Of a stretch of DNA of 64,000 nt, positions 16,398 to 44,802 are shown one piece after another. Position numbers and translations under genes: made by a program. Each line of letters begins with the position of its first letter. The stretch's first letter is position 1. Below the pieces are notes generated by a model. That model did no database searches. It was not told where the DNA came from and saw nothing but the letters and a program-made list of their open reading frames with translations. Source of the stretch: an uncultured Acidobacteriota bacterium (GTDB lineage Bacteria > Acidobacteriota > JAQAZP01); assembly GCA_963836075.1 (NCBI GenBank), contig CAWIIB010000001.1:832001-896000 (forward strand). Reading direction: 5' to 3'.

Positions 16398-17534
16398 ATG
16401 GAGCCAGTTCTCGATACACGGCGGATCTACAGACTGTCCCTGGCCGGCCTGCTGGCCGTGCTGCTCAGCTTTACCTGGCTGACTTCCCCCTCGGTGGCCG
16501 AGGAGGAGGCCGCACCACCACGGATGGTGTTTTCGTCGGTGACCCACGATGCCGGCCAGGTGGAGCGGGGGGCGATGATCTCCCACCAGTTCACCTTTCG
16601 CAACACCGGCGGTTCGGATCTGGTGATCCTGAGCACCAAGGCCGGGTGAGGGTGCACGGTGACCGGGGACTACGACCGGGTCACCCCTCCTGGTCAGGAG
16701 GGGCGCATAACCGTCACACTGAACACGCAAAAATTCAACAAGCCGATCTCGAAAACCGTCACCATCACCACCAACGACCCGGCGTCGAAACGGGTGGTGT
16801 TGACCATGAAGGCCGCCGTTCGTTCGCCCCTGGAGATCAGGCCTGACGACCGGGCCGATTTCCGTGTCTACCACGGGGAGGGGGGCAGCCGGTTGCTGGG
16901 TCTGATTCTCCGTCAGGACACTGAAGCCAGGGTGGTGAGTATCCAGTCGAACAGCGAACTGTTCACCGTGAATTGGGGCCCCTGGTCCCCCTCCGAAAAC
17001 CCGTCCCCGCAGGAGCGGGAGATCTTTGCCGGGGCGGCCGGCAACTCCGCCGTCCGGCTGGAGATCGGTCTCAGTCCGGATGCCACCGTGGGCTACCACA
17101 GCGGGCGGATCACCATTTATCTCGACGGAACGGAGCAGAAGCAGCTGGAGATCAAGGCCCTGGCCCGGGTGATGGGCCGCATACACTTCACGCCCCAGTG
17201 GATCTACTTCGGCTCGGTAACCGCCGGTGAACCGCAGCAGGCCGAGCGGCTGCTGGAGGTCCGCGCCCACGGCGGGCTCCCCTTTACGGTCGGCGGGGTG
17301 GAATACCAGGGACTCCCGCTCCAGTGGGAGATCAAGCCGCTGGAGGAGGGCGCCGGCACCGACATTCTCTTCCGCTGGGACGGTTCCGAACCGGCGGGCA
17401 TCCACAAGGGCCGGGTGGTTATCCTGACCGACAACCCGGCCCAGCCCCGCATCGAAGTGCCGTTCAGCATCAACGTACTGGCCGCGGAACCTGAAAAGGA
17501 AGAGCCGGTGGACAACCGGCTGAAGAGGCGCTGA
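16398..17534 (+). CDS. Secreted DUF1573-like multi-Ig protein with in-frame TGA (candidate selenoprotein)
   Basis: Signal peptide, HQFTFRNTGGSDLVILSTKAG*GCT...PPGQEGRITV...KTVTITTNDP. ORFs 16302-16649 and 16659-17534 share one frame. Confidence 0.8.
16650..16703 (+). promoter_or_regulatory. SECIS-like stem-loop(s) directly after the in-frame TGA
   Basis: GGTGACC(GG)...(CC)G-GGTCACC hairpin at 16658-16685 with a G-initiated loop. Second hairpin CCCCTCCT-GGTC-AGGAGGGG at 16684-16703. Confidence 0.5.
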
Positions 17535-17538
17535 GTTC

Positions 17539-19476
17539 TCAGTCAGCGTGGATGGTGAAACTGCCGGCGGCGCTGTACTGGTCGCCGCTGGCGGTGCCGT
17601 CCAGCACGACCAGTTCCAGACCCATGGGACACTCCAGCAGCTGCGCGGGCATCTGGGCTGGGATCCGGATCGGCAGGTTGATCCGCCGTTCGTCGCCCGG
17701 CTGGATGCTGCCCGACCCGCGGCGGAAGCCGTTGACCCGGCTGCCGTCACAGCGGATCAGGTCGAGGCTGGCCTGGAAGGACTGCCGGGTATCCGAGATG
17801 TTGGCGATGGCCAGCTGGGTCCAGAGCTGTTCACCGGTGCTCACTTCCGCCTGGACCAGCAGGCCCACCTGGAAGACCTGAATCGTGCCTTCCCGGACCA
17901 CCGTCCAGCTCACCCGCTCGGTGAGCCGGCCGTCCGGATCGGCCAGCAACCAGGAATCGTGGAGGGTGACCACCGCCTCCAGAAGATGCTCTCCCGGAGC
18001 GACGGAGTCGGTCTGGAGCTGGTACTGGGTGCCATGGCCGTCGGCCAGCGGTGTCCCGTCCAGAGACCACTGCACGTCCACCACATCTGCCGCCGTCCGC
18101 ACCAGGAAGGACTGCACGGCGGTCTCCAGGATCACCTGCTGAGACGAAGGCTCCCGGGAGTCCACCGGCCCGGCGTAGTCAAAGATCTCCAGGGCCATGA
18201 TCTCGCGGCAGACCGGGTCGAACCCGCTGTCCAGCGACCGCATCAGGCAACTGTCCGCCGGGCGGAACTTGCCGTGGGCGTAATACTCGCATCCCTCGTT
18301 GATCCCCACCCCTTCGATACCCAGCCAGTGGTGCCACTTGAGCTGCTGGGCCGCCATGTCGAACCAGCCCATGGAGGTGCAGTTGGGAGCGGACGGTTCG
18401 GGTCCACTGTACGTGTCGTAGGGGTTCTGGTACTCGTCGGTGAGACCGCCGAAGCTGTGGCCGAACTCGTGCAGCATCAGCTGGTGGGCGCTGGACGAAC
18501 CGCCGGCAAAGACGGCGTAGGCACCGGCGCCACCGCCGTAGCGCGACGTGTTGACCAGCAGGATGATCGTGTCGTATTCAGGAACGGCCGCGGCCGCCTC
18601 GAGCACCAGGGAGGTCTGAGCGTAGAGCAGCTGCGGAACGCCGGCGTAGTTGAACGAGGAATTGAAGGCCGTGTCCACATAGACCGGGGGCGACTGGTCC
18701 GGCTGGTCGGTCCCCGACTGGCTGGAGACCACCTCGAGCTTGTGAATGTTGACAAAGGACGCGAAGCGGTTGAACGGCTCACTGCCCAGCAGACCGTCCA
18801 CCAGGTTGTCCACGTGGTCGGCAAAGAGACCCATTTCAAATTCGGTGTAACCGTCGCCCAGCACCAGGATGTCCAGACGGTTGGCCGGGTCACCGGTCTG
18901 ATACACCATTTCCGCCTGGGTGCCGGCAGTGGTGCGGCGGGACTGCCGTGTCCGGTCTTCGCTGAGCCCGATCTCCCGGCCATCCAGGACGGTGAGCGGG
19001 CCCCAGGGGTCGCCCGCCCGGGAGATTTCGATCCGCTGGCCGGGCCCCACCACTGGAACAACGACCGAAAACCGCTGGTCGTCTTCCAGTGAAGCAGGGC
19101 CGCCGGCCAGGGATCCGTCAACCACCGTATCGGCGTGAACGAGGAAGGGGTCGGCCAGGGGCCGGCGCAGGATCGCGTGGCCGCTGGCCTTGTCGATCAC
19201 GGTGATTTCCAGCGAACCACTGTCCGCTGCTGCAGCCGGCCCCCGGCGGGAGGATACCCGCTGCACCGAAGTGAGCTCGATGCCGTGGGGGCCGCTGCGG
19301 AAGACCAGCCGCTGGGCGGACCGGTCATCCATGGAGACGTCGTCAGCCATACACGGGGAAAAACCGAATGTGGTGGAAATGATGACCATGAGAAGAGCGG
19401 TGAACAGAACCCGGGGATACCTGGCATCGGATTTGATTACCGGGCGATGTGCGCTGATTCTGTTTCCCTTGCTCAT
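17539..19476 (-). CDS. Secreted M64 (IgA peptidase family) metallopeptidase with C-terminal domain
   Basis: NRLDILVLGDGYT, YGGG, HEFGHSFGGLTDEY, EGCEYY..GKFRP..CLMR. Confidence 0.9.
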   Translation of the reverse strand: MSKGNRISAHRPVIKSDARYPRVLFTALLMVIISTTFGFSPCMADDVSMDDRSAQRLVFRSGPHGIELTSVQRVSSRRGPAAAADSGSLEITVIDKASGHAILRRPLADPFLVHADTVVDGSLAGGPASLEDDQRFSVVVPVVGPGQRIEISRAGDPWGPLTVLDGREIGLSEDRTRQSRRTTAGTQAEMVYQTGDPANRLDILVLGDGYTEFEMGLFADHVDNLVDGLLGSEPFNRFASFVNIHKLEVVSSQSGTDQPDQSPPVYVDTAFNSSFNYAGVPQLLYAQTSLVLEAAAAVPEYDTIILLVNTSRYGGGAGAYAVFAGGSSSAHQLMLHEFGHSFGGLTDEYQNPYDTYSGPEPSAPNCTSMGWFDMAAQQLKWHHWLGIEGVGINEGCEYYAHGKFRPADSCLMRSLDSGFDPVCREIMALEIFDYAGPVDSREPSSQQVILETAVQSFLVRTAADVVDVQWSLDGTPLADGHGTQYQLQTDSVAPGEHLLEAVVTLHDSWLLADPDGRLTERVSWTVVREGTIQVFQVGLLVQAEVSTGEQLWTQLAIANISDTRQSFQASLDLIRCDGSRVNGFRRGSGSIQPGDERRINLPIRIPAQMPAQLLECPMGLELVVLDGTASGDQYSAAGSFTIHAD

Positions 19477-39865: not shown

Positions 39866-41830
39866 ATGATGGCCCGCACCAACACTCATGCATCCACCGC
39901 CAGCGGTGACGGCGGGACAGACCAGGATTTCGGCCGGCGGACCTATCTCCTTGTCCTGCTGGTCATCATCCTCCTCGCCCTGGCCCTGCGGGTGGGCTAT
40001 ATACTGGAGGTCCGCCACCAGCCGTATTTCTCCGCCCCGGAGACCGATGCCGCCTACTACGACGACTGGGCCCGCAACCTGGCCCAGGGCCGGCCGGGCG
40101 AAGTGCCGTTCTTCCGGGTACCGTTCTACCCGCTGCTGCTGGGGGCCTGCTACCGCCTCTTCGGCGGCGGCTACCTGGTGCCGCGGCTGCTCCAGGCCCT
40201 CTTTTCGGCGCTGACCATCCTCCTGCTGGCGGAGCTGGCCCGCCGGATGGCCGGACGCCGCACCGCACTGCTGGCAGCGGCACTACTGGCGCTCCACGGG
40301 CTGTCGATCTACTTCTCCGGCGAGCTGTTGCTCACCACACTGGTCGTCGCCCTCGACCTGGGTTTCCTGCTGGCCTTCCTGGCCGCCGAAGAAGGCCGGC
40401 CGAAACTGCACCTGCTCAGCGGGCTGCTGCTGGGCCTCTCGGTGATCACCCGGCCCAGCGTATTGCTGGCCGCCCCGCTGGGGTTCCTCTGGATCCTGCT
40501 CCGCAAGCACGATCCGAAATCGTCCGCGGCGCCGGCCGCCCTCTTTTTTCTGGGGGTCGTCCTCCCCATCCTCCCGGTGACCCTGACCAACCTGCTGGCC
40601 GGAGGAGAGGCGGTGCTGCTGGCCACCCAGGGCGGGGTGAACTTCTACATCGGCAACAACGCCGAGGCCACCGGGGCCCACGCCACCCTCCCGGGCGCCG
40701 GTCCCGCCTGGCAGCGGGAGGATGCCCGGGCCCTGGCCGAGAGGGAGGCCGGCCGCCGGCTCAGCGCGGCCGAGGAGTCCTCCTTCTACTACCGCAAGGG
40801 CCTCGAGTTCGTCCACGGCAGCCCGGGAAGCTGGCTGGCCCTGATGGCCAGGAAGACCGCCCTCTTCTGGAACCGTGCCGAGACCGGCAGCAACCGCGAC
40901 TACGCCTTTGCCGCCCGGGATTCGCTGATCCTCCGTCTCACTCTGCCGCTGGGCTTCGCGCTCATCGGGCCCCTGGGTCTTGCCGGGATGGTGGCCCTCC
41001 GGCGAGGGGACCGCTCACGGGAACCGCTGCTCTTCCTCGCCCTCTTCACCCTGGTCTACATGGCCGGCGTGGTGATTTTCTTCGTCAATGCCAGGTTTCG
41101 TATGCCGGTGGTCCCGCTGCTGATCCTCTTCGCCTCGATCTTCATCCTGCAGGTGGTGAACCAGCTGCGCCGGCGCCGCTTTCCCTACCGGGCCGCCGCA
41201 CTGCTGGCCGCCGCCGTGCTGGTCACCTGGTGGCCGCTGGGGGTGGCGGCGAGCAATCCCGCCTTCGGTCACTTCCACAACGGCAACGCCCACCTCGAAC
41301 AGGGGAATCTCAGCGAGGCGCGGGCTGCCTTTACCCGGGCCCTGGCGGAGAGCCCCGGGTATCCCCAGGCCCAGCTCAACATCGGCTTCACCTACTTCCG
41401 CGAAGGGAATCTCGAACAGGCGGCTGCCGCGTTCCGCGAGGAGTTGCGGCTCCACCCGGACAGCGAGAAGGCGATGTACAACCTCGGTGTGCTGAGCCGC
41501 GACAGCGGTGACCGAGCCGGGGCCGTGAGGTGGCTTCGCCGGGCAGTGGAGCAAAAACCGTGGTTCAGTGAAGCCCGCACCACCCTGGCCGCGCTGCTGG
41601 CCAGCCAGGGGGCGGCCGAAGCGGGCCAGGGACAGATCCAGCAGGCCCTGGCACTCTTTGGTGAAGCGGTGGAACTGGACGGTTCGCGGCCGATCTACCG
41701 CTACAACTACGCCCTGGCCCTGGGTCAGAGCGGGCGGGAGAACGAAGCACTGGAACAGTTGCGAAAAGCCCTGGAGATCGACCCCGGTTTCGAACCGGCC
41801 CGACAGATGCTGGAAGCCAGGGGCCGATAG
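39866..41830 (+). CDS. GT-C (PMT/ArnT-like) glycosyltransferase with C-terminal TPRs
   Basis: DAAYYDDWA, PFYP, GGVNFYIGNN, ARFRMPVVP, then TPRs. Confidence 0.85.
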   Translation: MMARTNTHASTASGDGGTDQDFGRRTYLLVLLVIILLALALRVGYILEVRHQPYFSAPETDAAYYDDWARNLAQGRPGEVPFFRVPFYPLLLGACYRLFGGGYLVPRLLQALFSALTILLLAELARRMAGRRTALLAAALLALHGLSIYFSGELLLTTLVVALDLGFLLAFLAAEEGRPKLHLLSGLLLGLSVITRPSVLLAAPLGFLWILLRKHDPKSSAAPAALFFLGVVLPILPVTLTNLLAGGEAVLLATQGGVNFYIGNNAEATGAHATLPGAGPAWQREDARALAEREAGRRLSAAEESSFYYRKGLEFVHGSPGSWLALMARKTALFWNRAETGSNRDYAFAARDSLILRLTLPLGFALIGPLGLAGMVALRRGDRSREPLLFLALFTLVYMAGVVIFFVNARFRMPVVPLLILFASIFILQVVNQLRRRRFPYRAAALLAAAVLVTWWPLGVAASNPAFGHFHNGNAHLEQGNLSEARAAFTRALAESPGYPQAQLNIGFTYFREGNLEQAAAAFREELRLHPDSEKAMYNLGVLSRDSGDRAGAVRWLRRAVEQKPWFSEARTTLAALLASQGAAEAGQGQIQQALALFGEAVELDGSRPIYRYNYALALGQSGRENEALEQLRKALEIDPGFEPARQMLEARGR

Positions 41831-41971: not shown

Positions 41972-42354
41972 ACAAAAGAGATTTACCGCCCTGCCAGTGG
42001 CGACGTGGCGTACTCTTCCTCTGTGTGCCCGTTCTTCGCTGTATGGGCATCATTTTTCCATGTCCAGCATGTCAAACCGCTAATTCCATAAGGAGTTTCC
42101 TGTGTTGCTGATGATATGGAAAACAGCATTGCCGGACATAAATACTGATTACGGCCTCTGTTTTCACAGGCACGAAACAGGAAGTTCTGTATTGAATCGG
42201 CAACGGCCCTGGTCGTGATGACCGGGGCCAGGGTTTCTGTCTCGGAGGTATGGAGAAAAATACGCCTCCACGAGTCCTGCTCATGGATGAAGGGGATCTG
42301 TGCAAGATGTCACCTGGCCCGCTCGCGGGCCGCAACAAAGTGGAGATTGCTGAT

Positions 42355-44802
42355 ATGAGATTTCTGACGAGAACTCTGATGGCCACCCTCTGTATGTTGA
42401 TCCTGGTGCTTCCGGCGATGGCCTCCGATACACCACTGGTGAATGCCACAACGCCGGCCACCGGTATCGCCGCCTCCCCGGCCGCCACGGTCACCATCGG
42501 TACTTTCGCGACACCGCCGAACACCGCCACCATCGATACCGAAAAGTTGCTGAACAGCTGGCAGCCCGCACCCGGCTACGAAACGCCGCGGATGCAGATG
42601 ACGAACATGGGCACCGAACAGCTGAACACCTTCCAGGGCCACGACCTCAGCTCGTTGACCAACAGGGGGGGGGGCGTGGGGAGCATCCTCTATGCACCCT
42701 CCCAACCTGACAACCCGACCTTCCGTGCGGCTGTGGCCGCCTGCTCGGGGGCGACGGTGGACTACTTCGACGCCAGCGCCGGCACCCCGGACGTGGCCCT
42801 GCTCGCCGCCTATGACTGTGTGCTGGTCTGGGGCAACTACGCCTTTGCCGACGCCTTCCTCTACGGCGACAACCTCGCGGCCTACGTGGACGGCGGGGGC
42901 AAGGTGATCCTCGGCCAGTGGTGCTACCACACCACCCAGATCAACTGGCTGGAAGGTGCGATCATGGGGATGGCCTACTGCCCCATCACCGCAAGCGCCT
43001 ACGAAAGCGGAGCCTACAACGGCGACGGCACCGATTGTGTGCATGGCGGTGTGGTCGCCTACGAATCCTCCTATTTCGACGCCTGCTCGCCGATCATCGG
43101 AGCTGCCTCCGACGGGACGTTCAGCAACCCGTCGAACAGCCTGGCCGTGGCCTGGCGGCCGGACCGCGCGGTCTATTACAGCCCGGGCAATACCGGTACC
43201 GACTACGGCACCGGTGATTGGCCCCAGCTGGTCTGCAACATGGCCATGTGCGGCGGCGGTGGCGGCTGGGGCATCCTCTACGCGCCGAGCACTGTAGACA
43301 ACCCGGACTTCCGCGCGGAACTCGCCGCCTGCACCGGGCTGAACGTCGACTACTACGACGCCAGCGCCGGCACCCCCACCATGTCCGAACTCTCAGGCTA
43401 CACCTGCGTGCTCACCTGGGCCAACTCTGCCTATGCCGACAACGTTCTCTTCGGCGACAACCTCGCGGCCTACGTGGATGGCGGCGGCAAGGTGATCCTG
43501 GGCCAGTGGACTTATGACAGCGGCCAGTTGAACGCCCTGGCCGGAGCGATCATGACCGCGGCATACTGCCCGGTCACCACCTCCACAAGTTACGACGTTG
43601 GTGCCTACAACGACGACGGCATTGACTGCGTGCACGGCGGTGTCAGCGCCTACGATACCTCGTATCTGGACGTCGCCACGGTGGTGGCCGGAGCTCTCTC
43701 TGACGGGACGTTCAGCAACCCGTCGAACAGCCTGGCCGTGGCCTGGCGGCCGGACCGCGCGGTCTACTACAGCCCGGGCAACACCGGCGGTTCTTTTGGC
43801 ACTGGACAGTGGGCCCAGCTGGTCTGCAACATGGTCTTTTGCATCGACGTCACTACCGGGGACATCCTCTACGCGCCGAGCGAAGCGGACAACCCGACCT
43901 TCCGCGCGGAAGTCGAAGCCTGCACGGGGTTGACCGTCGACTACTTCGACCCCAGAGTGGCCACCCCGGACGTGGCCCTGCTCTCGAACTACCAGTGCGT
44001 GCTCACCTGGGCCAACTGGGCCTACTTCGACAATGTCGCATTCGGCGACAACCTCGCGGCCTACGTGGACCTCGGCGGCCAGGTGATCCTCGGCCAGTGG
44101 TGCCTGCCCACCGCGGGCAACTACCTGGACGGCGCCATCATGACGCCGGCCTACTGCCCGACCACCGGAATGCCGCCCTGGGAAACCGGAACCTACAACG
44201 GCGACGGTACCGATTGCGTGTTTGGCGCAGTCACTTTCCTTGATGCCCCCTATTTCGACGCCGCTACTCTGGTGGCCGGGGCTTCCGACGGGACGTTCAA
44301 CAACCCGTCGAACAGCCTGGCCGTGGCCTGGCGCGCCGACCGGATGGTCTACTCCAGCCCGGGCAACACCGGCGGCACTTACAGCACCGGTGATTGGGCC
44401 CAGCTGGTCTGCAACATGATCGAGTGCCCGGCGGGACCCAGCGGCACCATCGCCGTGGATCTCAATGCGACGCCCGACACTGGTTTCGCACCCTTTGTCA
44501 CCGCCTTCACGACGCAGCTGACCAACCTGACCACCGAGCGCCGGCGGGCCTCCGCGAGAATCAACGTGGTCATCGCCAACGGCAACAACTACAACAACTG
44601 GAGAGCCGGGTGGACCAACCTCGACAGCATGGAGACTTTCACCAGAACCTGGCCCCAGACCATCCCGGCCCTGGCCACCGTGATCGGCACCAACACCTTC
44701 ACCCTCGAGGGTGAAGACGTGACGCCGGCGCCTTACAACCAGCCGCCCTACGCGCCTTCCGGTGACACGGACACGGACGTGCAGACCGTGATCGCCAACT
44801 AG
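42355..44802 (+). CDS. Secreted protein with three tandem Cys-rich ~196-aa repeats and a C-terminal domain
   Basis: GGAG RBS, signal peptide MRFLTRTLM..., repeats ILYAPS..DNP.FRA...GDNLAAYVD.GG.VILGQW...W.QLVCNM. Confidence 0.9.
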   Translation: MRFLTRTLMATLCMLILVLPAMASDTPLVNATTPATGIAASPAATVTIGTFATPPNTATIDTEKLLNSWQPAPGYETPRMQMTNMGTEQLNTFQGHDLSSLTNRGGGVGSILYAPSQPDNPTFRAAVAACSGATVDYFDASAGTPDVALLAAYDCVLVWGNYAFADAFLYGDNLAAYVDGGGKVILGQWCYHTTQINWLEGAIMGMAYCPITASAYESGAYNGDGTDCVHGGVVAYESSYFDACSPIIGAASDGTFSNPSNSLAVAWRPDRAVYYSPGNTGTDYGTGDWPQLVCNMAMCGGGGGWGILYAPSTVDNPDFRAELAACTGLNVDYYDASAGTPTMSELSGYTCVLTWANSAYADNVLFGDNLAAYVDGGGKVILGQWTYDSGQLNALAGAIMTAAYCPVTTSTSYDVGAYNDDGIDCVHGGVSAYDTSYLDVATVVAGALSDGTFSNPSNSLAVAWRPDRAVYYSPGNTGGSFGTGQWAQLVCNMVFCIDVTTGDILYAPSEADNPTFRAEVEACTGLTVDYFDPRVATPDVALLSNYQCVLTWANWAYFDNVAFGDNLAAYVDLGGQVILGQWCLPTAGNYLDGAIMTPAYCPTTGMPPWETGTYNGDGTDCVFGAVTFLDAPYFDAATLVAGASDGTFNNPSNSLAVAWRADRMVYSSPGNTGGTYSTGDWAQLVCNMIECPAGPSGTIAVDLNATPDTGFAPFVTAFTTQLTNLTTERRRASARINVVIANGNNYNNWRAGWTNLDSMETFTRTWPQTIPALATVIGTNTFTLEGEDVTPAPYNQPPYAPSGDTDTDVQTVIAN
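42685..44430 (+). repeat. Three intragenic tandem repeats
   Basis: Units start at 42685, 43273 and 43864 (periods 588 and 591 nt) and share long identical DNA blocks. Confidence 0.95.

What the first reader, a model, noticed from the sequence alone, without database searches (positions are those of the whole stretch)
44443..44802. Shared C-terminal domain on two unrelated secreted proteins: candidate undescribed protein-sorting or anchoring system
Seen: the last ~115 aa of the M64 peptidase (17539-17889, minus strand) and of the triple-repeat protein (44443-44802) align without gaps over 50 aa. The segments are ANISDTRQSFQASLDLIRCDGSRVNGFRRGSGSIQPGDERRINLPIRIPA and TNLTTERRRASARINVVIANGNNYNNWRAGWTNLDSMETFTRTWPQTIPA: 11 identities plus many conservative pairs. 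Both domains begin GTI.V and end L...D.T...SGD plus a final strand, and one carries an extra PAPYNQPPYA loop. Both proteins have N-terminal signal peptides and otherwise unrelated passengers. Established: a common terminal domain on diverse secreted proteins is the hallmark of sorting signals (T9SS CTD, PEP-CTERM, SLH). Inference: this matches none of those by eye (no TM helix or basic tail) and may be a lineage-specific secretion or surface-anchoring domain.
Basis: partly seen in the sequence, partly recalled or inferred. Interest (0 to 1): 0.85.

Follow-up and report, generated by a model that had tools for sequence, protein, structure and literature searches.

The report
New C-terminal tag on exported proteins
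The tail of the triple-repeat protein is one copy of an uncatalogued 115-residue folded domain that ends about 200 different exported proteins in this uncultured bacterium, most likely a shared address or anchor label whose reader is unknown, and the peptidase's tail is only a distant relative of it.

Summary
The last 119 aa of the triple-repeat protein (window 44443-44799) are a canonical copy of a ~115-aa domain. I found 215 copies in 214 open frames of this genome, and 208 of them end within 30 aa of the stop. They sit on unrelated passengers (peptidases, beta-helix, FG-GAP, glycosidases), mostly with signal-peptide-like starts.

The predicted fold is a seven-strand CARDB/Ig-like sandwich (pLDDT 97). 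It has a conserved loop, DVTPAPYNQPPYxPSGD, usually a co-varying cysteine pair, and a fixed five-residue end, TGxAP-stop.

No Pfam, NCBIfam or PDB sequence model matches it. It shows no profile similarity to type IX (T9SS) or FlgD_ig-type tails. It occurs in 3 of 401 sampled genomes of the phylum, all in one genus.

The M64 peptidase tail lacks the loop and the fixed end. It is a remote relative: reciprocal HMM E-values are about 1e-3 to 1e-2 genome-wide, it aligns in register, and the predicted fold is the same.

Homologues of both passengers in other lineages end in T9SS, FlgD_ig, dockerin or RTX modules. A sorting or anchoring role is therefore likely but not shown, and I found no machinery.

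The scan had already flagged this domain twice on other DNA of the same genome (e1-366787, e1-1902832).

The parts
44443..44799 (+). C-terminal tag domain of the triple-repeat protein (residues 732-850). It is a canonical family member, a variant without the cysteine pair, and ends ...TVIAN-stop.
   Evidence: Family HMM 160.2 bits, HMM 1-115 on residues 733-847. AF2 pLDDT 97.2, seven strands. At least 150 paralogous matches in the genome.
44716..44766 (+). Signature loop DVTPAPYNQPPYAPSGD (domain residues 92-108), between the sixth and last strands.
   Evidence: D92, T94, P97, N99, P101, P102 and G107 are invariant in 37 diverse copies. Residues 93-108 have no secondary structure in the model. 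The loop is absent from the M64 tail and from six loop-less members.
42250..44802 (+). Triple-repeat exported protein (longest ORF 850 aa). The true start is probably M36 at 42355.
   Evidence: ORF. MRFLTRTLMATLCMLILVLPAMA-SD reads as a signal peptide (sequence). The database gene call is 839 aa (P0244).
42685..44418 (+). Three tandem passenger repeats (residues 146-331, 342-528, 539-723).
   Evidence: Pairwise identity is 123-132 of 197-198 columns. Only sub-threshold Pfam hints (Glyco_hydro_42M 21.6 bits against a cut-off of 25.8). Homologues elsewhere carry 1-3 repeats.
17542..17889 (-). C-terminal Ig-like tail of the M64 peptidase (residues 530-645). It is a remote, loop-less relative of the tag family.
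   Evidence: sequence. AF2 pLDDT 90.0. All 10 of the triple-repeat tail's top-10 PDB matches are among the M64 tail's top 12. The tail is conserved at 65-88% in nine orthologues.
17539..19476 (-). M64 family metallopeptidase, 645 aa, with a signal-peptide-like N-terminus.
   Evidence: PF09471 at 127.8 bits, residues 192-386. 92 homologues.

Best explanation
The triple-repeat protein ends in a lineage-specific C-terminal address or anchor domain. The cargo is exported by Sec through its N-terminal signal peptide. The 115-aa tail then folds outside the cytoplasm into a CARDB/Ig-like sandwich, stapled in most copies by a disulfide between the first and last strands. A single shared partner recognises it as a folded unit and takes the passenger to the cell surface, or holds it there.

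Recognition probably uses the conserved face (NWRAGWTN, WNQ.PAL), the Pro-rich, possibly Ca-binding loop DVTPAPYNQPPYxPSGD, and the fixed free end TGxAP-COOH. About 200 proteins, roughly 4-5% of this genome's genes, use the tag.

The M64 peptidase tail descends from the same domain stock, closest to a small loop-less subfamily. It has lost or never had the signature loop and end, so it may act only as an Ig-like appendage.

Shown: the family, its position, its fold, its narrow distribution, its diverse exported passengers, and positional equivalence with known tags. Inferred: recognition by a partner, surface targeting, metal binding, and the disulfide.
For: - Copy number and position: 215 domain hits in 214 of 37,094 ORFs; 208/215 end within 30 aa of the stop. 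Of 177 full copies, 162 have exactly 5 residues after the model end, consensus TG[IVM]AP-stop.
- Among the 150 best of 494 representatives in 1.84 billion proteins, 147 end within 12 aa of the C-terminus.
- Export: signal-peptide-like starts in 126/166 carriers against 226/600 control genes, by a crude hydropathy rule (Fisher P=1e-18). The cysteines co-vary: both present 127, neither 21, one only 29.
- Passengers are unrelated. 39 of 75 scanned have Pfam families: 9 peptidases (S8, M14, M28, C1, C25), 10 beta-helix, 7 FG-GAP, GH5, CBM96, BNR and others. None of these families covers the tail.
- The tail is strongly conserved: mean column identity 62% over 37 diverse copies.
- Fold: pLDDT 97.2.
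- Positional equivalence: homologues of the repeat passenger end in FlgD_ig (P0250, P0255, P0258, P0267), Por_Secre_tail (P0354, P0355) or dockerin (P0343). M64 homologues end in Por_Secre_tail (P0190, P0201), dockerin (P0168) or RTX repeats (P0170).
- Restricted range: 3/41 relatives and 3/401 phylum genomes, 1 of 227 genera. The motif scan of 185,579 species genomes gave 128 confirmed stretches, and all 80 kept loci lie in two MAGs.
Against: - No partner was found. There is no SprA or PorV match (no positive control rang).
- The best PorU-like C25 peptidase has an orthologue in G001 but none was found in G002, and it has 29-34% homologues in 17 genera that lack the tag.
- Neighbouring genes are generic families.
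- 8 of 150 representatives carry two tandem copies, and P0019 has the domain just after its signal peptide. This fits a binding module better than a strictly terminal secretion signal.
- The fold is common, and the Z-scores fall off gradually with no outstanding match.
- No conserved linker or cleavage motif precedes the domain.
- 40 of 166 carriers lack a signal-peptide-like start under my rule, and the rule also fires on 38% of controls.
- Secretins are present, so an ordinary type II route cannot be excluded.
- Nothing here shows where the proteins end up.
Confidence: 0.6

Rival explanations
1. The domain is a substrate- or matrix-binding module (CBM- or adhesin-like). It tethers many secreted enzymes to one external polymer or biofilm matrix, and is not a signal that sorts them within the cell's own envelope.
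For: - Conserved Trp, Tyr, Asn, Gln and Arg positions (W53, W57, W70, Y98, N59, Q72, R54) resemble glycan-binding faces (my knowledge, not tested).
- The best structural neighbours include the Vibrio matrix scaffold RbmA (Z 12.2), CARDB (Z 10.4) and Ig-like domains of glycosidases.
- The nearest ESM-feature clusters are CARDB proteins, score 0.89, which is only a lead.
- Tandem doubles occur in 8/150 representatives, and one copy is N-terminal.
Against: - The distance to the free C-terminus is fixed in 162/177 copies. Internal arrays are nearly absent, which is unusual for CBM, CARDB or PKD modules.
- The domain is attached to peptidases, FG-GAP and beta-helix proteins alike.
- It is confined to one genus, whereas useful substrate-binding modules usually spread.
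- Homologous passengers elsewhere carry sorting tags at this position.
Confidence: 0.2
2. The domain is a generic structural Ig-like domain that spread by gene duplication with its passengers. It has no shared partner and no sorting role.
For: - The fold is common: 82 PDB chains reach Z>=8.
- The largest neighbour/paralogue cluster (264 members) mixes 76 carriers with non-carriers, so part of the expansion is family duplication.
- Adjacent near-identical copies exist (L007 and L008).
Against: - Passengers belong to at least 20 unrelated Pfam families, so the tail was combined with many passengers independently.
- The tail is far more conserved than the passengers.
- The terminal position and the TGxAP end are constrained.
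Confidence: 0.08
3. The resemblance between the M64 tail and the triple-repeat tail is only that of two Ig/CARDB-like sandwiches. On this view the M64 tail is an ancestral part of this peptidase subfamily, not a relative of the tag.
For: - The family HMM gives only 15.4 bits on 55 positions. phmmer with the M64 tail finds nothing significant in the genome (best E=0.076). hhalign probability is only 51%.
- A 35%-identical M64 homologue (P0165) has a Pfam CARDB domain at the same place (516-625), and the BLASTP alignment runs about 25 residues into it.
- The M64 tail lacks the loop, the Trp residues and the TGxAP end.
Against: - The reciprocal HMM searches single each other out among 37,094 ORFs, in register at the C-terminus. 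26 of the 40 best non-self hits are carriers.
- M64 tails show no profile similarity to the CARDB region of P0165 (P=0.08 over 8 columns).
- Other Ig-like domains in the genome (CARDB, PKD, Big_7, fn3) are not picked up.
Confidence: 0.15
4. The domain is a very divergent type IX secretion C-terminal domain, served by a cryptic T9SS.
For: - The logic is the same: an Ig-like C-terminal domain on Sec-exported hydrolases and adhesins.
- A PorU-like C25 peptidase is present (201.9 bits, below the cut-off of 420).
- Passengers elsewhere use T9SS or FlgD_ig tails.
Against: - Profile-profile comparison of the family against 4 Por_Secre_tail and 10 FlgD_ig tails gives P=0.16 in both cases. The positive control (those two sets against each other) gives probability 96%, P=3.6e-9.
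- No member hits PF18962, TIGR04183 or PF13860.
- SprA 0/41 and PorV 0 in the own genome.
- Por_Secre_tail matched in 1/41 relatives.
Confidence: 0.05

Closest known systems
T9SS type A C-terminal domain (Pfam PF18962 Por_Secre_tail / TIGR04183) and the FlgD_ig-type tails (PF13860) of FCB-group bacteria
   Same: It is a folded Ig-like beta-sandwich at the extreme C-terminus of many unrelated Sec-exported hydrolases and adhesins. There are up to hundreds of cargos per genome. It occupies the very position at which homologues of both window passengers carry PF18962 or PF13860.
   Different: There is no sequence or profile similarity. The domain is longer (115 aa, against models of 72-79 positions) and much more uniform between paralogues. 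It has a signature Pro-rich loop and a TGxAP end. No SprA or PorV was detected. Some tandem copies exist.
CARDB domain (Pfam PF07705; PDB 3idu/2kl6)
   Same: The sandwich type is the same (Z 10.4, rmsd 2.4 over 99 residues). The nearest ESM-feature clusters are CARDB proteins (0.89, a lead only). An acidic or polar segment follows the sixth strand, where CARDB binds metals (the metal site is recalled from the 3idu title, not tested).
   Different: The Pfam CARDB model matches 0 of 17 members at E<=10. CARDB domains occur internally and in arrays, whereas this domain is terminal with a fixed end.
Dockerin (PF00404) / cohesin assembly of cellulosomes
   Same: It is a single conserved C-terminal module shared by many different secreted enzymes of one organism, with possible Ca-binding Asp/Thr-rich motifs. 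Homologues of both passengers carry dockerins (P0343, P0168).
   Different: The fold is unrelated (beta-sandwich versus EF-hand-like helices). No Pfam match. No scaffold protein with repeated receptor modules was found.
Vibrio cholerae RbmA FnIII domains (PDB 4be5/4kkq)
   Same: It is the best structural match (Z 12.2; Foldseek TM 0.74-0.75). RbmA is an extracellular protein that holds cells to a matrix.
   Different: Identity is 12-13%. The match stands only about 1 Z unit above many unrelated sandwiches. RbmA is a stand-alone two-domain protein, not a tag.

Membership tests
New C-terminal tag family of this genus (defined here) | Full-length match to the family HMM, including the DVTPAPYNQPPYxPSGD loop: triple-repeat tail | tested here: met
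   160.2 bits, HMM 1-115. 42-82% identical to more than 150 paralogous tails.
New C-terminal tag family of this genus (defined here) | Full-length match to the family HMM, including the loop and the TGxAP end: M64 tail | tested here: not met
   15.4 bits on HMM 22-76 only. The loop and end are absent. Remote homology to the loop-less subfamily is supported.
T9SS type A CTD (PF18962 / TIGR04183) and FlgD_ig-type CTD (PF13860) | Sequence match to the family model | tested here: not met
   0 of 17 members in Pfam and NCBIfam at E<=10. hhalign P=0.16 against both tail sets, with positive control P=3.6e-9.
T9SS type A CTD (PF18962 / TIGR04183) and FlgD_ig-type CTD (PF13860) | C-terminal position on signal-peptide-bearing, diverse cargo | tested here: met
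T9SS type A CTD (PF18962 / TIGR04183) and FlgD_ig-type CTD (PF13860) | T9SS core (SprA/Sov translocon, PorV shuttle, PorU sortase) encoded in the genome | tested here: inconclusive
   SprA has 0 candidates and PorV 0 matches in the own genome. SprA is 0/41 in relatives. No control genome rang for SprA. A PorU-like C25 peptidase scores 201.9 bits, below the cut-off of 420.
CARDB (PF07705) | Match to the Pfam model | tested here: not met
   0 of 17 members at E<=10. P0001 and P0002 have no CARDB hit at E<=1. A2 against the CARDB region of P0165 gives P=0.87.
CARDB (PF07705) | CARDB-type beta-sandwich fold | tested here: met
   3idu: Z 10.4 (triple-repeat tail) and 10.8 (M64 tail). The Z-scores are no higher than for many other sandwich types.
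PEP-CTERM / LPXTG / GlyGly-CTERM type signals | Short motif followed by a C-terminal transmembrane helix and a basic tail | tested here: not met
   Of 36 genes with a C-terminal hydrophobic helix plus basic tail, none is a tag carrier and none has a PEP- or LPXTG-like motif (crude regex). The tail ends TGxAP without a helix.
Dockerin (PF00404), SLH (PF00395) | Match to the Pfam model | tested here: not met
   No Pfam family at E<=10 except one chance-level hit (STIV_turret_3rd, E=0.084, 1 of 17).
PKD (PF00801 / PF18911) | Match to the Pfam model. The N-terminal 'P.SG.LPF' resembles the PKD start (recalled). | tested here: not met
   No PKD hit in 17 members. The fold match to PKD 4xed is Z 9.6.

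The most novel reading that the evidence does not exclude
The tag marks the cargo of an undiscovered outer-membrane export or surface-attachment pathway, unrelated to type IX secretion. A deep-branching, uncultured Acidobacteriota genus uses it for some 200 proteins (4-5% of its genes). The folded, disulfide-stapled domain, with its Pro-rich loop and free TGxAP end, would be the recognition element, and a genus-specific envelope protein still hidden among the unannotated genes would be its reader.
Probability: 0.3. Interest if true: 0.85.

Novelty: new variant of a known kind. Interest (0 to 1): 0.6.

Why it matters
Shared C-terminal tags are how bacteria address whole sets of secreted proteins. 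Each known tag (T9SS CTD, PEP-CTERM, LPXTG, dockerin) led to a dedicated machine.

Here a single uncatalogued domain ends about 200 exported peptidases, glycosidases and adhesin-like proteins in a lineage where neither T9SS nor PEP-CTERM-type signals were found. It therefore gives a ready-made cargo list and a bait for finding a new sorting or anchoring partner.

On the practical side, a family model would annotate hundreds of 'hypothetical' proteins in these genomes as exported or surface proteins.

The limits are that the family is confined to one uncultured genus, that the function is inferred, and that this scan keeps finding comparable lineage-specific tags in other uncultured phyla.

Tried and rejected
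- PorU-like C25 peptidase (G000:C1:1027244-1029985, 914 aa, with a signal peptide, no tag, followed by an S24/S26-type peptidase) as the tag's 'sortase'. I rejected it as a specific partner. Its orthologue is in G001 (65%) but was not found in G002 (100% complete, at least 111 tags). Homologues at 29-34% occur in 17 genera without the tag.
- Gene neighbourhood. Tag genes are mostly scattered (132 singletons; 19 runs of 2-4). The recurrent non-tag neighbours are big generic families: hybrid two-component regulators with Reg_prop/Y_Y_Y (21 of 111 members), RND pumps, TPR-CHAT, radical SAM, sulfatases, MscS. No candidate emerged.
- Giant open frames as possible novel translocons. All 14 scanned frames of 1500 aa or more have ordinary Pfam content.
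- T9SS parts: TIGR04183 0, SprA 0, PorV 0. PF18962 and PF13860 have no match above cut-off in the own genome. SprA and TIGR04183 had no ringing control.
- PEP-CTERM/LPXTG regex: 0.
- Sequence search of PDB chains: best E=0.2.
- ESM Atlas: only CARDB-like leads below 0.9.
- Comparison with the CARDB domain of the M64 homologue P0165: no profile similarity.
- Short representatives that looked like 'tag-only' proteins (P0016, P0017, P0061, P0079, P0141, P0101) have no signal peptide and read as gene fragments.
- Three literature searches (listings and abstract starts only, no paper opened) found nothing on such a domain.
- Not run: complex prediction, sequencing-run look-ups, and the metagenome-contig scan.
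Full report
**The two genes.** The triple-repeat protein is the ORF at window 42250-44802 (+), 850 aa.
- It probably starts at M36 (nt 42355), where MRFLTRTLMATLCMLILVLPAMA-SD reads as a signal peptide.
- Three repeats follow (residues 146-331, 342-528, 539-723), 62-67% identical to each other.
- The 119-aa tail is at 44443-44799.

The M64 peptidase is at 17539-19476 (-), 645 aa. It has PF09471 at 127.8 bits and a hydrophobic N-terminus. Its tail is residues 530-645 (17542-17889). The window lies at G000:C1:832001-896000 of a 6.23-Mb, 10-contig, roughly 64% G+C genome.

**The triple-repeat tail is one of about 215 copies.**
All had E<=8e-27 and 42-100% identity.
- I cut all 37,094 stop-to-stop frames of at least 80 aa, built an HMM from the phmmer hits, and found 215 domain hits in 214 frames at E<=1e-3.
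- 208 of the 215 end within 30 aa of the stop codon, and 188 of these end 4-10 aa from it.
- Of 177 full-length copies, 162 have exactly five residues after the model end, with consensus TG[IVM]AP-stop.
- In a crude gene set of 4,400 genes, 179 of the 214 frames are included, so about 4-5% of genes carry the domain.
- The window copy scores 160 bits over the whole model. It belongs to a minority without the two cysteines and ends ...TVIAN. Its paralogue on contig C9 (L002/P0032) is 82% identical in the tail and 81% in the passenger.

**Anatomy of the domain.** An alignment of 37 diverse copies (A2) has a mean column identity of 62%. The invariant positions are P11, P17, F18, G47, R54, G56, W70, P75, G82, D92, T94, P97, N99, P101, P102 and G107. 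The consensus is ..C.P.SG.LPF...N.T..RR.AGRI....A.G....NWRAGWTN...GE....W.Q..PAL..LVG.N.F.L...DVTPAPYNQPPY.PSGDTD.D.CTV.
- AlphaFold2 with this alignment gives pLDDT 97.2 and pTM 0.87. The model is a seven-strand sandwich, and residues 93-108, the Pro-rich loop, form a long coil before the last strand.
- A cysteine near the first strand and one in the last strand co-vary: both present 127, neither 21, one only 29 of 177. I read this as a disulfide and hence folding outside the cytoplasm. That is an inference.
- No conserved linker or cleavage motif precedes the domain.

**Relation to known families.**
- Pfam gave no match to 17 members at E<=10, apart from one chance-level hit. NCBIfam gave none.
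- The best PDB chain by sequence has E=0.2.
- By fold it is a common Ig-like sandwich. VIA-align gave RbmA Z 12.2, transglutaminase-3 C-terminal barrel 11.2, AlkC Ig-like 11.1, CARDB 3idu 10.4 and PKD 4xed 9.6, with 82 chains at Z>=8. Foldseek agrees.
- ESM-Atlas features point to CARDB clusters at 0.89, which is only a lead.
- For a direct test against type IX tails I used tails found here: 4 Por_Secre_tail and 10 FlgD_ig. hhalign of A2 against each set gave P=0.16. The two sets against each other, as a positive control, gave probability 96% and P=3.6e-9.
- The domain is therefore a new sequence family within a known fold class.

**Who carries it.**
- By a crude hydropathy rule, 126 of 166 carriers of at least 300 aa have a signal-peptide-like start within the first 80 codons. 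The figure for control genes is 226 of 600 (odds ratio 5.2, P=1e-18). The rule is loose, as the 38% control rate shows.
- An earlier, looser version of the rule gave 136 of 185.
- Of the 150 best database representatives, 130 start with M, and 97 of those have a hydrophobic N-terminus.
- I scanned 75 of these 150 with Pfam, choosing those that start with M, are at least 300 aa long, and fit the 50,000-residue limit. 39 have families: S8 x5, M14, M28, C1, C25, beta-helix/NosD x10, FG-GAP x7, BNR x2, PQQ, GH5, CBM96, F5/8-C, PKD, PPC and others. 36 have none. No family covers the tail.

**Exceptions to the terminal rule.** Among the 150 representatives, 147 have the last copy ending within 12 aa of the C-terminus. 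Eight carry two tandem copies. Three are not terminal: P0019 has signal peptide, then tag, then 335 aa; the others are P0034 and P0098. Short 'tag-only' entries look like fragments.

**Distribution.**
- A profile search of 1.84 billion representatives found only 494 proteins at E<=1e-3, and 453 at E<=1e-10.
- In whole genomes the domain occurs in 3 of 41 relatives: G000, G001 and G002, all one genus, with 291, 192 and 165 first-look candidates. It was found in none of 38 other genera of the phylum.
- It occurs in 3 of 401 genomes sampled across the phylum, that is 1 of 227 genera. At most 11 candidates per genome were scored in that run.
- A motif scan (TP[AS]P[YF]NQPP) of one genome for each of 185,579 species gave 128 confirmed stretches. 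All 80 kept loci lie in two MAG records (JAQAZP01..., labelled Acidobacteriota bacterium, and CBESOE01...). The own genome may be left out of that collection.

**The M64 tail.** It is not a normal member.
- The family HMM gives 15.4 bits on positions 22-76. It missed the genome-wide threshold. phmmer with the tail finds nothing significant (best E=0.076).
- The family does contain a small loop-less subfamily of six frames with a ...TLCNG...R.G...IPA...TCNCDLV... pattern. This subfamily aligns with the M64 tail over its whole length.
- An HMM of those six, run on all 37,094 frames, lists 209 frames at E<=10. The only non-family frame is the M64 peptidase (E=0.011). The tail alone scores 21.4 bits, E=4.7e-4 at that database size.
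- The tail is conserved in nine orthologues, all M64 peptidases of 639-643 aa, at 65-88% identity.
- An HMM of the ten tails has two loop-less members as its best non-self hits (E=7.5e-4 and 9.6e-4), at their C-termini. 26 of its 40 best non-self hits are carriers, mostly aligned in the same register 44-46 aa from the end.
- hhalign of M64 tails against A2 gives probability 51%, P=1.5e-4 over 52 columns.
- The AF2 model of the tail (pLDDT 90.0) is the same kind of sandwich. All ten of the triple-repeat tail's best PDB matches are among its best twelve.
- Against homology, the M64 homologue P0165 (35% identical) has a Pfam CARDB domain at the equivalent place. However, the M64 tails show no profile similarity to it.
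- I conclude that the two tails share ancestry, with about 85% confidence. The M64 tail may no longer work as a tag.

**Positional equivalence with known tags.**
- Homologues of the repeat passenger in other lineages end in FlgD_ig (for example 980-1027 of 1043), Por_Secre_tail (761-819 of 821; 589-655 of 657) or dockerin (717-765 of 773).
- M64 homologues end in Por_Secre_tail (354-430 of 431; 382-456 of 458), dockerin or RTX repeats. One is named MYXO-CTERM by its source.
- This is the strongest indirect argument for a sorting or anchoring role.

**Search for machinery.**
- SprA, PorV and the type A tail model found nothing in the genome. SprA was 0/41 and Por_Secre_tail 1/41 among relatives. 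The SprA and TIGR04183 searches had no ringing control, so absence is not proven.
- The PorU model hits 22 C25 peptidase regions, many of them passengers of tagged proteins. The best (201.9 bits, cut-off 420) is a 914-aa secreted C25 peptidase without a tag, next to an S24/S26-type peptidase. Its distribution does not follow the tag.
- Tag genes are mostly scattered, and their neighbours are generic.
- All 14 scanned frames of at least 1500 aa have ordinary domains.
- Secretins are present, so a type II route is possible.
- No PEP-CTERM- or LPXTG-like tails were seen.

**Reading.** The position, the fixed free end, the uniformity between paralogues, the exported and diverse cargo, the swap with known tags, and the lineage restriction make a shared address or anchor domain the best explanation (0.6). 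I cannot separate 'secretion signal' from 'surface retention'. The fixed terminus favours the first. The tandem copies and the one N-terminal copy favour the second.

The rivals are a substrate- or matrix-binding module (0.2), a partnerless structural domain (0.08) and a cryptic T9SS tail (0.05).

**Prior knowledge.** Three full-text searches gave nothing relevant (I saw listings and abstract starts only). The scan's own notes had already flagged this domain twice on other windows of this genome (e1-366787, e1-1902832), calling it Ig-like, uncatalogued and without known machinery. I confirmed those points independently. I find about 215 copies rather than 'dozens'. Notes on other genomes describe analogous lineage-specific tags. 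I did not test them.

Noticed in passing
window 39866-41830 (+): The gene directly upstream of the triple-repeat gene encodes a 654-aa membrane protein with a PMT_2 (GT-C mannosyltransferase-like) domain and C-terminal TPR repeats. One adjacency says nothing about a link with the tag.
   Followed up: partly
window 16659-17534 (+): A 291-aa ORF converges on the M64 peptidase gene and has a DUF1573 match (32.7 bits). The longer overlapping frames on both strands in this region look like high-GC shadow ORFs.
   Followed up: partly
L137 (G000:C9:2267510-2274076) and L138 (G000:C9:1011951-1018484): Two open frames of 2189 and 2178 aa hold TamB, POTRA repeats and an Omp85 barrel in one frame with no stop. 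This may be a TamB-TamA fusion, present twice.
   Followed up: no
L041/L043 (G000:C1:1025744-1031485): A 914-aa secreted C25 peptidase resembles PorU (201.9 bits, below the cut-off of 420). It is followed on the same strand by a 164-aa S24/S26 signal-peptidase-like protein. Its orthologue is in G001 but was not found in G002.
   Followed up: yes
L127 (G000:C9:1044193-1048524) and its paralogues: My BLAST clustering finds a cluster of about 111 paralogues whose example member is a hybrid two-component regulator (Reg_prop, Y_Y_Y, HisKA, HATPase, receiver, AraC HTH), like the glycan-sensing regulators of Bacteroidota. 21 members lie within two genes of a tag gene.
   Followed up: partly
P0019, P0003-P0010 (database representatives): P0019 has the tag right after its signal peptide, followed by 335 aa of other sequence. 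Eight proteins carry two tandem tags, and both copies score well.
   Followed up: partly
G000, six frames (for example C9 reverse-strand frame 1122467-1124644 and C1 reverse-strand frame 587828-589276, in my script's coordinates): A loop-less subfamily of the tag has extra cysteines (TLCNG...TCNCDLV...C..TT.C) and its own C-terminal ending. It is the closest relative of the M64 tail.
   Followed up: yes
L147 (G000:C9:127651-132345), L144 (G000:C9:1316198-1321003): Stop-free frames join an AcrB-type pump to an outer-membrane efflux protein domain (1565 aa) and to an ABC ATPase domain (1602 aa). These could be fusions or adjacent genes in one frame. I did not check.
   Followed up: no
G000 genome-wide: 40 of 166 tag carriers of at least 300 aa have no signal-peptide-like start, and several lie directly after another frame (for example the two reverse-strand C9 frames 2363863-2365626 and 2365630-2368167, in my script's coordinates). 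This suggests frameshifts or assembly errors in some genes.
   Followed up: no
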